Origin: the human T2T-CHM13v2.0 reference genome, Homo sapiens
Direction of reading: 5' to 3'
Length of the DNA: 64,000 nucleotides
NCBI GenBank assembly: GCA_009914755.4
Contig: CP086569.2
Location: 55,904,001-55,968,000 of the forward strand
Positions 51,643 to 54,244 of the stretch are shown here, one piece after another. The first letter of the stretch is position 1, and every line of letters begins with the position of its first letter. The translations under genes and the position numbers were made by a program. The notes under the pieces were generated by a model that saw only the letters and a program-made list of their open reading frames with translations, searched no databases and was not told the origin of the DNA.

Positions 51643-53494
51643 ATGCAATTTAATAAAATAGGATCAAATGTAATGGAATGGAATGGAAAGGAATCGAAAC
51701 GAAAGGAATGGAGACAGATGGAATGGAATGGAACAGAGAGCAATGGTATAGAATGGAATGGAATCATCTGGAATGGAATTGAATGGAATGGAATAACATG
51801 AAATGGACTGGAATGGAATGGAATGCCCTTGAATTAAATGGACTGGAATGGAATGGACTCGAACAGAGTGGAATGGAAAGTGTTGAAATATAATGGAATG
51901 GACTGGTTTGGAATGGTCTAGTATGCAATGCAATCGACTGGCAGGGAATCAAAAGGAATGTAATCGAATGGATTGGACTGGAATGCAATGGACTCGAATA
52001 GATTGGAAACGGAATGCAAAGGAATGGAATGGAATAGTATGGAATGGAATGGAAAGGAATGGAGTGGAATAGACTAGAGTGGAATGGAATGGACTCGAAA
52101 GCAATGGACTGGAATGGAACTTTCTTGAATGGACTGGAATCAAACGGAATGGAATGCAATGCAATCAAATGGCATGGAATAAAATAGAATGAAAGAGAAT
52201 CAAATGGAATTGAATCGAATGGAATCGAATGGATTGGAAAGGAATAGAATGGAATGGAATGGAATTGACTCAAATGGAATGGACTAGAATGGAATGGATT
52301 CGAATGGAAGGCAAAGGAATGGAATCTATTGGAATGGACTGTAATGGAATGGAATGGAAGGGATTGGAATGGACTCGAATGGAATGGACTGCAATAGAAA
52401 GGATTCGAATGGAATGAAAAAGAATTGAATGGAATAGAACAGAATGGAATCAAATCGAATGAAATGGAATGGAATAGAAAGGAATGGAATGAAATGGAAT
52501 GGAAAGGATTCGAATGGAATGCAATCGAATGGAATGGAATCGAACGGAATGGAATAAAATGGAAGAAAACTGGCAAGAAATGGAATCGAAATGAATGGAG
52601 TGTTATGGAACGGACTCAAAAGGAATTGAATGTAATAGAATGGAGTGGAGTGGACTCGAATATAATGGACTGGAATGGAATGAAATCACATGGAATGGGA
52701 ACGAATGGAATGGAATGGAAAGGAATGGAATCGAATGGAAAGGAATCGAATGGAAGGGAATGAAATTGAATCAACAGGAATGGAAGGGAATAGAATAGAC
52801 GGTAATGGAATGGACTCGAATAGAATGGACACGAATGCTCAAATTGAATGGACTCGAATGGAATGGAAACGAAAGGAATGTCATCGAATGGAATTGAATC
52901 GATTGGAATGAAATCGCATAGAATGGAGTGGAATCAAATGGAATTGAATCGAAAGGAAAGGAAGCGAATGGACTGAAATGAAATGGAATGGAATTGAATG
53001 GAAAGTAATGCAATGGAAAAGAATGGAACGAAATTTCACGGAATGGAATCAAACTGAATGGAATCAAATCAATGGAATCAAATCAAATGGAATGGAAAGG
53101 AATTGAATGGAGTAGATGGGATTGGATGGGATTGGAATGAAATGTACTGGAAAGGACTCGAATTTCATGAAACGGAATGGAATGAATTGGAACGGAATGG
53201 ACTCGAATGGAATGGAATGTCATGGAATGGCATCAAATGGAATGGCATCAAATGGAATGGAATCGAATGTAATGGAATGGAATGCATTGGAATGGAATGT
53301 CCTCTAATGGAATGGATTCGAGTGGAATGGAATCGAATATAATGGAGTCGAATGAAATGGAATTGAAAGGAATGGGATCGAATACAATGGAATATACTGG
53401 AATGTAATGTAATGAACTCGAATGTATTTGACTGGAATGGAATGTACATGAATGGAATGTAATCGAATGGAAAGTAATCCAATGGAATAGAATC
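51643..53494 (+). repeat. DYZ1-like terminal HOR copy, truncated at 1852 bp by the junction with the AT-rich satellite
   Basis: The anchor is at 51643. The pentamer satellite stops at '...aaagtaatccaatggaatagaatc' (53494), where other copies continue 'taatgcaataaaatcgactca'. Confidence 0.8.
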
Positions 53495-53505
53495 ATATAT
53501 GATAT
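53485..53505. other. DYZ1 (HSat3) / DYZ2 (AT-rich satellite) array junction
   Basis: 'aatggaatagaatc|atatatgatatataatatatgtataatattgttttacatcctgcatc'. The sequence after the bar aligns to the start of the AT-rich segment of the downstream 2420-bp units (55122-55225, 'gtatcatatatataatatatataacctatgtataatattgttttacatcctgaatc'). Confidence 0.8.
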
Positions 53506-54244
53506 ATAATATATGTATAATATTGTTTTACATCCTGCATCTTATGTTATATATATTGTATAAAATATAATAATTGATTATATATACTTTTATAACATAA
53601 TTTACATAATATATCATAATATAATATATATTATATTATTTCATATTACATAATATATATTACATATCACCCAATATAAGTAACTTACATAATATTATAA
53701 TATAGATTATATTATGTTATATTAAATATCATATATATTATGTATCATATATTCTATAATATATATTATACATTATATAATATGTATGTTGTCTATTATG
53801 TGATATATATAACTATACATATAATTATATTATTATACGTATAACTAGATAAACATGTAATTCTACATATTTTCATTTATAATATATAGAATTATATAAT
53901 CATATATAATTATGTATATTCTATAAAAAATTATATCATTATATAAATTATAATATATAAAAATTATAATATGTACTACAAATATATATATTATATATCA
54001 TATATGATATAGTACCTTTGTTATATATCATAATACATATAAATGTGTATTATGTTATCTATAATTATATAATTTCATATATAAGTTGTATAATATGTAT
54101 TATATATTATATATGTTATGTAATATATATAGTATATATAAGATGACACAGGATAAATATTATATACTATGACATATAAGATATATGAGGTTATATGTTT
54201 CATATAAGGCATAGCACATAACATGTAATATATATCATATATAA
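53495..54244. repeat. Partial first DYZ2-like unit (750 bp of AT-rich segment; lacks ~790 bp present in later units)
   Basis: 53501-53578 aligns to 55141-55220. From 53577 onward the sequence aligns to 56008-56664. The canonical 55221-56007 is absent. Confidence 0.7.

What the first reader, a model, noticed from the sequence alone, without database searches (positions are those of the whole stretch)
53440..53620. Exact HSat3(DYZ1)-to-AT-rich(DYZ2) junction, with microhomology and a defined phase in both repeats
The pentamer array ends at 53494 ('...ggaatagaatc'), 1852 bp into its last HOR copy. It joins the DYZ2-type unit precisely at the start of that unit's AT-rich segment, canonical position ~55122. 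The join passes through a shared 'atcatatat' stretch: 'gtATCATATATataat' in canonical DYZ2 against 'gaATCATATATgatat' here. This fits a microhomology-mediated join. It does not look like an insertion of foreign DNA. Junctions of this kind have long been hard to resolve in heterochromatic arrays, so this is a locatable landmark.
Basis: partly seen in the sequence, partly recalled or inferred. Interest (0 to 1): 0.6.

Follow-up and report, generated by a model that had tools for sequence, protein, structure and literature searches.

The report
Human Y DYZ1-to-DYZ2 satellite array boundary

Summary
The junction exists at 53494/53495. To its left lie about 15 copies of the 3.55-3.57 kb DYZ1 (HSat3A6) repeat. 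To its right lie 2,420-bp DYZ2 (HSat1B) units. Period, HaeIII pattern, Alu content, GC and CpG density all match published values.

- The overlap between the two parental sequences is ATC, 3 nt (1-2 nt for the other DYZ1 variant). Random DYZ1/DYZ2 joins reach 3 nt or more 6% of the time. "ATCATATAT" is simply DYZ2 sequence.
- The DYZ2 entry point is about 30 nt inside the AT-rich segment, not precisely at its start.
- The DYZ1 phase is 1,892 bp, not 1,852 bp, in the window frame.

- 17 nt (53495-53511) are not canonical DYZ2. With their flanks they form a 23-nt exact inverted copy of a site found once per DYZ2 unit.
- Only 67 nt of canonical AT-rich start follow. A 768-bp deletion then occurs at 53578/53579.
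- Units next to the join carry extra private mutations (44, 13, 4, 5 per DYZ2 unit, moving away from the junction).

The best reading is an old non-homologous join at an array edge that has escaped homogenisation. No second copy of the junction could be retrieved, so whether other boundaries reuse it remains untested. This is an ordinary instance of a known architecture, of low to moderate interest.

The parts
1..53494 (+). DYZ1 (HSat3A6) array: GGAAT-derived pentamer satellite in about 15 higher-order copies of 3.52-3.57 kb. The terminal partial copy is 51603-53494 in the window frame, or 50442-53494 in the HaeIII frame.
   Evidence: k-mer periods are 3569, 3549, 3544 and 3559. GGCC sites are spaced 3549/3569/3559/3524/3574, and Hallast's modal HaeIII fragment is 3,569 bp. 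DYZ1 PCR primers recalled from memory hit exactly and give a 154-bp product once per copy. GC is 38.7% and CpG density 1/36 bp, against published values of 38% and 1/35.
53269..53272 (+). Site of a private 15-bp (three-pentamer) deletion in the terminal DYZ1 copy.
   Evidence: Alignment to the preceding copy and to all 15 copies. No other copy carries this deletion.
53492..53494 (+). ATC: the only bases that either parent could have supplied, i.e. the true microhomology.
   Evidence: DYZ1 parent ...AATAGAATC|TAATGC. DYZ2 parent ...ACAGTATC|ATATAT. Chance of 3 nt or more is 0.063.
53495..53511 (+). 17 nt (ATATATGATATATAATA) that do not match the canonical DYZ2 AT-rich start. With flanks, 53492-53514 is a 23-nt exact inverted copy of a site present once per DYZ2 unit. 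It is either a candidate templated filler or an old local variant.
   Evidence: Matching statistics. The inverted copies lie at 53986, 56406, 58826, 61246 and 63666. The longest inverted exact match anywhere in a canonical AT-rich segment is 19 nt.
53512..53578 (+). 67 nt identical to the canonical start region of the DYZ2 AT-rich segment. It equals 57584-57650 and is equivalent to 55164-55230.
   Evidence: Exact 67-mer match; local alignment.
53578..53579 (+). Breakpoint of a 768-bp deletion inside the AT-rich segment of the first DYZ2 unit. The missing bases are equivalent to 55231-55998. Overlap is 1 nt (T).
   Evidence: Three-way comparison and coordinates. A k-mer period of 1652 = 2420-768 is seen. 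The in-phase match to downstream units resumes here.
53579..54245 (+). The rest of the shortened AT-rich segment of the first DYZ2 unit.
   Evidence: Gapless alignment in register with units at +2420, +4840 and +7260.
54246..54536 (-). Diverged Alu subunit of DYZ2, 291 bp, lacking about 6 nt at its 5' end.
   Evidence: Sub-threshold hits to the Alu-derived Rfam family mir-1268. Published length is 290 bp.
54537..55110 (+). GC-richer HSATI-type part of the DYZ2 unit. It ends in ACATACG at 55104-55110.
   Evidence: Composition and sequence. Hallast describes ACATACG at the HSATI/AT-rich intersection and a mean HSATI length of 566 bp.
55111..64000 (+). About 3.7 further DYZ2 units of exactly 2,420 bp.
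   Evidence: Period 2420. HaeIII pattern 2146+45+25+204. Identity among inner units is 99.0-99.6%. GC is 24.1% and CpG density 1/151.

Best explanation
The site is one of the DYZ1-to-DYZ2 array boundaries of the human Yq12 heterochromatin. Two unrelated satellites were joined by a non-homologous, end-joining-type event.

The DYZ1 unit is cut about 3.05 kb after its HaeIII site. The DYZ2 unit is entered about 30 nt inside its AT-rich segment. At most 3 nt (ATC) overlap.

The boundary is old. Array edges take part less in the unequal exchange and gene conversion that homogenise array interiors. The units touching the join have therefore accumulated private changes:
- a 15-bp deletion on the DYZ1 side;
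- a non-canonical 17-nt stretch on the DYZ2 side;
- a 768-bp deletion in the AT-rich segment;
- about 2.3% substitutions in the first DYZ2 unit.

Shown: the identity of both arrays, the base-level anatomy, the size of the overlap, and the divergence gradient. Inferred: the repair pathway, the order of events, the age, and that the junction was later copied along with whole arrays. The junction has no function of its own. It is a structural scar.
For: Identity of the arrays:
- Periods of 3569 and 2420 match the published 3,569-bp modal HaeIII fragment and the 2,420-bp DYZ2 consensus.
- HaeIII patterns fit both repeats.
- DYZ1 primers give 154 bp once per copy.
- The Alu is 291 bp.
- GC and CpG densities equal published values.

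Join:
- The DYZ1 exact-match run stops at 53494 and DYZ2 matches start at 53492.
- The parents share only ATC.
- No similarity between the parents extends beyond that, so homologous exchange is excluded.

Old edge:
- Private substitutions per DYZ2 unit fall 44, 13, 4, 5 with distance from the junction.
- The first unit is 97.6-97.8% identical to inner units, which are 99.0-99.6% identical to each other.
- The terminal DYZ1 copy has a private 15-bp deletion.
- Hallast et al. report higher divergence towards array ends. They also report DYZ2 length variation of 1,275-3,719 bp caused by changes in the AT-rich part.

Copying by descent is plausible:
- Iterative duplications of up to 5 Mb span several DYZ1/DYZ2 blocks.
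- Yq12 length varies mainly by gain and loss of whole arrays.
Against: - Only one junction is in the window and no independent copy was retrieved. Recurrence, age and read support are untested.
- The divergence gradient on the DYZ1 side is weak: 4-7 private events in the last three copies, against 0-6 earlier.
- Three irregularities lie within 85 nt of each other: the ATC join, the 17-nt odd stretch and the 768-bp jump. This could equally be the signature of one complex event rather than an old join plus later decay.
- A 3-nt overlap does not discriminate between end-joining pathways.
Confidence: 0.7

Rival explanations
1. One complex template-switching event made the whole composite. The mechanism would be replication-based (MMBIR/FoSTeS type) or polymerase-theta-type end joining with templated insertion. 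The path would run from the DYZ1 end, to 23 nt copied from the opposite strand of a DYZ2 site, to 67 nt of the AT-rich start, and then to a jump 768 bp downstream. A tiny overlap marks each switch: ATC, TAT and T.
For: - 53492-53514 is a 23-nt exact inverted copy of a site present once in every DYZ2 unit.
- The longest inverted exact match anywhere in a canonical AT-rich segment is 19 nt, and the 99th percentile is 17.
- Deriving 53495-53511 from the canonical 21 nt needs several indels and substitutions, yet the next 67 nt are identical to an inner unit.
- All three breakpoints lie within 87 nt and each has a 1-3 nt overlap.
Against: - 12 of the 23 nt are a self-palindrome (ATCATATATGAT), and 15 nt also match the same site in direct orientation. 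The evidence specific to inversion is therefore only about 8 AT-only bases.
- AT-rich simple sequence mutates fast, and the array edge may preserve an older variant of this stretch.
- The candidate template lies 463 nt away, further than typical snap-back synthesis (established knowledge).
- DYZ2 length variants caused by AT-rich deletions are common on their own.
Confidence: 0.25
2. One reading: a microhomology-mediated join through a shared 9-bp ATCATATAT stretch, placed precisely at the start of the AT-rich segment, suggesting a preferred breakpoint.
For: The string ATCATATAT is present both at the junction and at 55140-55148. The breakpoint is close to the segment start, about 30 nt from it.
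Against: - No DYZ1 copy contains ATCATATAT at this position. All 15 read GAA[T/A][C/T]TAATGC.
- The parental overlap is 3 nt, or 1-2 nt for the GAAAC variant, and the chance probability is 0.063.
- Neither parental site nor the junction has unusual single-strand folding potential. z-scores are +1.3, -0.85 and -1.0.
- A preferred breakpoint cannot be inferred from a single junction.
Confidence: 0.05
3. The join is an assembly artefact: a chimeric or collapsed join of reads from a DYZ1 array and a DYZ2 array.
For: Yq12 is among the hardest regions to assemble. No reads were available here.
Against: - A false join between array interiors should bring ordinary homogenised units up to the breakpoint.
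- Instead both flanking units carry private changes, and the DYZ2 units show a graded decline in private substitutions: 44, 13, 4, 5.
- DYZ1/DYZ2 alternation is established, with 34-86 arrays per chromosome.
Confidence: 0.05

Closest known systems
DYZ1/DYZ2 (HSat3A6/HSat1B) alternating arrays of human Yq12, as described in T2T-Y (Rhie et al. 2023) and in 43 and then 84 Y assemblies (Hallast et al. 2023; 2026 preprint)
   Same: Unit lengths, HaeIII patterns, tripartite DYZ2 structure, GC and CpG densities, higher divergence at array ends, and AT-rich length variants.
   Different: Nothing differs in kind. The papers I could search annotate the boundaries but do not describe the junction sequence, overlap or first-unit structure base by base.
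Non-homologous end-joining or alt-EJ breakpoint junctions with 0-3 nt overlap and short fillers (established knowledge of structural-variant breakpoints)
   Same: Two unrelated sequences are joined with a 3-nt overlap. There is a 17-nt stretch that neither parent supplies in register, and possibly a local inverted template.
   Different: The pathway cannot be assigned from one old, mutated junction. The filler may instead be a sequence variant.
Edge effect in tandem arrays: divergent units at array ends, as in alpha-satellite and as reported for DYZ2 by Hallast et al.
   Same: Private substitutions decline from 44 to about 4-5 per unit over four units from the edge.
   Different: The gradient is seen clearly only on the DYZ2 side. 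On the DYZ1 side it is weak.

Membership tests
DYZ1 (HSat3A6) | Array derived from the pentamer GGAAT/CATTC, with a nested repeat of about 3.5-3.6 kb | tested here: met
   GGAAT density and GC skew. Periods are 3569, 3549 and 3559.
DYZ1 (HSat3A6) | One HaeIII site per unit, with a modal fragment of 3,569 bp | tested here: met
   GGCC spacing is 3549-3574, with 3569 seen twice.
DYZ1 (HSat3A6) | Classical DYZ1 primer pair gives a 154-bp product | tested here: met
   Exact hits 154 bp apart once per copy, e.g. 9364-9517. The primer sequences were recalled from memory and could not be confirmed in the paper library.
DYZ1 (HSat3A6) | Location on Yq12 | not testable with these tools
   No human reference genome is available in the collections.
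DYZ2 (HSat1B) | 2,420-bp unit | tested here: met
   Period 2420. Gapless 2,420-bp alignments. Published consensus is 2,420 bp.
DYZ2 (HSat1B) | Tripartite unit: AT-rich segment, a diverged Alu of about 290 bp, and an HSATI part of about 566 bp with ACATACG at its junction with the AT-rich segment | tested here: met
   The AT-rich segment is 1,555 bp, the Alu 291 bp, and the remainder 574 bp including ACATACG.
DYZ2 (HSat1B) | About 24% GC and about 1 CpG per 150 bp | tested here: met
   24.1% GC and 1 CpG per 151 bp.
Microhomology-mediated end joining junction | Microhomology shared by both parental sequences at the breakpoint, beyond chance | tested here: inconclusive
   3 nt (ATC) with P=0.063 by simulation. 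It falls to 1-2 nt if the parent was the GAAAC variant.
Microhomology-mediated end joining junction | Templated insertion copied from nearby sequence | tested here: inconclusive
   A 23-nt exact inverted match exceeds the background maximum of 19, but it is half palindromic.
Unequal homologous exchange (NAHR) junction | Extended sequence similarity between the two parents across the breakpoint | tested here: not met
   Beyond ATC the parents are unrelated.
Insertion of a mobile element or foreign DNA | Sequence at the join that belongs to neither array, with target-site duplication or terminal repeats | tested here: not met
   Every base maps to DYZ1 or DYZ2 sequence in some orientation. The only Alu is the resident DYZ2 subunit.

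The most novel reading that the evidence does not exclude
The composite scar is the footprint of one founding template-switching event. It consists of the ATC overlap, a 17-nt inverted templated filler, 67 nt of AT-rich start, and a 768-bp jump. If every or most DYZ1-to-DYZ2 boundaries in Yq12 inherited it, it would be a base-level marker for reconstructing how the DYZ1/DYZ2 alternation arose and how blocks were duplicated in different Y lineages.
Probability: 0.15. Interest if true: 0.5.

Novelty: already known. Interest (0 to 1): 0.25.

Why it matters
The Yq12 block is the largest heterochromatic region of the human genome. Why DYZ1 and DYZ2 alternate at a roughly 1:1 unit ratio is unexplained.

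Boundary sequences are the only non-homogenised markers inside this region. A catalogue of them could show two things: whether the alternation stems from one founding join copied many times or from repeated joins, and how to date the block duplications.

One junction from one window adds only a worked example of what such a boundary looks like. The data to do this properly are already public.

Tried and rejected
1. Independent copies of the junction as human contamination in public collections.
- The exact 24-mer TGGAATAGAATCATATATGATATA gave 0 hits in metagenome contigs and genome contigs.
- The tolerant pattern GGAAT-N{3,33}-GTATAATATTGTTTTACATCCTG gave 0 hits in both of those and in viral contigs.
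- A control with the DYZ2 23-mer alone found no DYZ2 in viral contigs, so that negative has no power.

2. Junction-spanning ORFs used as handles.
- The 82-aa ORF starting at the junction ATG (53496-53248, minus strand) and the 105-aa ORF 53482-53165 are not on record.
- A protein search found no relatives.

3. BLAST of 52500-55200 against plasmids and phages gave no match.

4. Break-prone hairpin or cruciform at the breakpoints. DNA folding of the junction and both parental sites is no better than shuffles. Rejected.

5. The 768-bp deletion as loss of one internal subrepeat. Self-alignment of the AT-rich segment gives about 65% identity at every offset, and TRF finds only short periods and one 230-bp period. 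There is no 768-bp periodicity. Rejected.

6. Literature. No base-level description of DYZ1/DYZ2 junctions was found in the searchable papers or the one held supplement. The recalled DYZ1 primer sequences could not be confirmed in the library.

7. The Rfam hits to mir-1268 inside the Alu are far below the gathering score (38 against 83 bits). They reflect Alu ancestry, not a gene.

Full report
**What is in the sequence**

Composition changes abruptly at 53494/53495. GC is 0.37-0.41 with GC skew near +0.55 up to 53000. Beyond that point GC averages about 0.24 with no skew.

K-mer spacing gives periods of 3569, 3549, 3544 and 3559 on the left and 2420 on the right. The sequence reads ...CCAATGGAATAGAATC|ATATATGATATATAATATATGTATAATATTG....

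**Identity of the two arrays**

The left array has the marks of DYZ1:
- One GGCC site per copy, spaced 3549-3574 bp. Hallast et al. give 3,569 bp as the commonest HaeIII fragment.
- The classical DYZ1 primer pair hits exactly and gives 154 bp once per copy. I recalled these primers from memory and could not confirm them in the paper library.

The right array has the marks of DYZ2:
- Units of exactly 2,420 bp, cut by HaeIII into 2146+45+25+204 bp.
- Each unit holds a 1,555-bp AT-rich segment, a 291-bp diverged Alu on the minus strand, and a GC-richer part ending in ACATACG.
- This matches the published 2,420-bp tripartite DYZ2 consensus, in which ACATACG marks the HSATI/AT-rich intersection.

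GC is 38.7% on the left and 24.1% on the right. CpG density is 1/36 and 1/151 bp. Published values are 38% and 24%, and 1/35 and 1/150.

**Base-level anatomy of the join**

I computed, for each position, the longest exact match to other DYZ1 copies and to inner DYZ2 units on both strands.

- *DYZ1 side.* The DYZ1 run ends at 53494. All 15 earlier copies continue TAATGCAATAAAATCG at that point.
- *Overlap.* The canonical DYZ2 parent reads ...ATATACAGTATC|ATATATATAATATATATAACCTATGTATAATATTG. The two parents therefore share only ATC (53492-53494). Five of the 15 DYZ1 copies read GAAAC instead of GAATC there, and for that variant the overlap is 1-2 nt. In 200,000 random DYZ1xDYZ2 joins, an overlap of 3 nt or more occurs at frequency 0.063.
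It is not microhomology.
- *Non-canonical 17 nt.* The next 17 nt (53495-53511, ATATATGATATATAATA) do not match the canonical 21 nt at that place. Together with their flanks, 53492-53514 is a 23-nt exact inverted copy of a site present once in every DYZ2 unit, at 53986, 56406, 58826, 61246 and 63666. The longest inverted exact match anywhere in a canonical AT-rich segment is 19 nt. However, 12 of the 23 nt are a self-palindrome.
- *Canonical start.* 53512-53578 is a 67-nt exact copy of the canonical AT-rich start, equal to 57584-57650.
- *Deletion.* At 53578/53579 the sequence jumps 768 bp forward, skipping the equivalent of 55231-55998, with a 1-nt overlap. From there it runs in register with the downstream units. 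The first DYZ2 unit is therefore 1,652 bp long. This length lies inside the published range of 1,275-3,719 bp, which is attributed to changes in the AT-rich part.

**Position in each repeat**

- In the window-start frame the join is 1,892 bp into the last DYZ1 copy, because position 1 aligns to 51603.
- In the HaeIII frame it lies 3,053 bp after the last cut.
- In DYZ2 it lies at 55140-55143. That is about 30 nt after ACATACG, so it is near the start of the AT-rich segment but not precisely at it.

**Signs that this is an old, real edge**

- Private substitutions per DYZ2 unit fall 44, 13, 4, 5 with distance from the join.
- The first unit is 97.6-97.8% identical to the inner ones. The inner units are 99.0-99.6% identical to each other.
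- The terminal DYZ1 copy has a private 15-bp deletion near 53270 and three private substitutions.
- The last three DYZ1 copies carry somewhat more private events than most earlier ones, but this trend is weak.

This agrees with the published observation that units near array ends are more diverged. A chimeric assembly join between array interiors would not produce this pattern.

**Mechanism**

The parents are unrelated beyond 3 nt, so homologous exchange is excluded and a non-homologous join is the supported reading.

The evidence does not show which end-joining pathway acted. It also does not show whether the 17-nt stretch and the 768-bp jump belong to the same event or came later. A single template-switching event is a live rival at about 0.25.

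Two further ideas were tested and rejected:
- There is no excess hairpin potential at the junction or at either parental site.
- The 768-bp deletion does not correspond to any internal period of the AT-rich segment.

**Comparison with what is known**

- T2T-Y has 86 alternating DYZ1/DYZ2 blocks with manually refined boundaries, and iterative duplications of up to 5 Mb spanning several blocks.
- Other assemblies have 34-86 arrays.
- In 84 assemblies, Yq12 length tracks the number of arrays rather than array size.

Boundaries of this kind therefore occur many times per chromosome. They are already assembled and are probably often copies of one another. I found no base-level description of them in the searchable literature.

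**Limits**

No second copy of the junction could be obtained from any collection available here. It needs the public Y assemblies.

**Verdict**

The microhomology claim is wrong as stated. The phase values are slightly off. It is an ordinary instance of a known architecture.

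Noticed in passing
window 53578-53579: The first DYZ2 unit lacks exactly 768 bp of its AT-rich segment, equivalent to 55231-55998, which makes it 1,652 bp long.
   Followed up: yes
window 53492-53514, against 53986-54008 and the same site in each later unit: A 23-nt exact inverted match, containing the 12-nt palindrome ATCATATATGAT, sits exactly at the junction. It may be a templated filler or an old sequence variant.
   Followed up: partly
window 53579-63258: Private substitutions per 2,420-bp DYZ2 unit decline 44, 13, 4, 5 away from the array edge. 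This is a clean small-scale example of reduced homogenisation at an array end.
   Followed up: yes
window 34390-39789: An irregular DYZ1 stretch. One copy lost its HaeIII site through a 1-bp deletion (GGCC to GGC near 34394). Near 37126 the repeat jumps back from about position 2740 to about position 896 of the unit. Together these give a 1.5-unit copy and an 8,966-bp HaeIII fragment.
   Followed up: partly
window 50135: An extra GGCC site in the penultimate DYZ1 copy splits it into HaeIII fragments of 3,248 and 305 bp.
   Followed up: no
window 46397-region copy (about 44900-46400): This DYZ1 copy carries two private 10-bp indels within 1.5 kb. Small pentamer-multiple indels are the main source of the 3524-3574 bp length variation between copies.
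   Followed up: no
window 54349-54415 and 56769-56835, minus strand: Sub-threshold Rfam hits to mir-1268 (35-38 bits against a gathering score of 83) lie inside the DYZ2 Alu subunit. They reflect Alu ancestry, not a microRNA gene.
   Followed up: yes
window 53248-53496, minus strand: An 82-aa ORF begins with an ATG created exactly by the junction (CAT at 53494-53496). It has no relatives in the protein collection and is best regarded as a chance ORF in pentamer satellite.
   Followed up: yes
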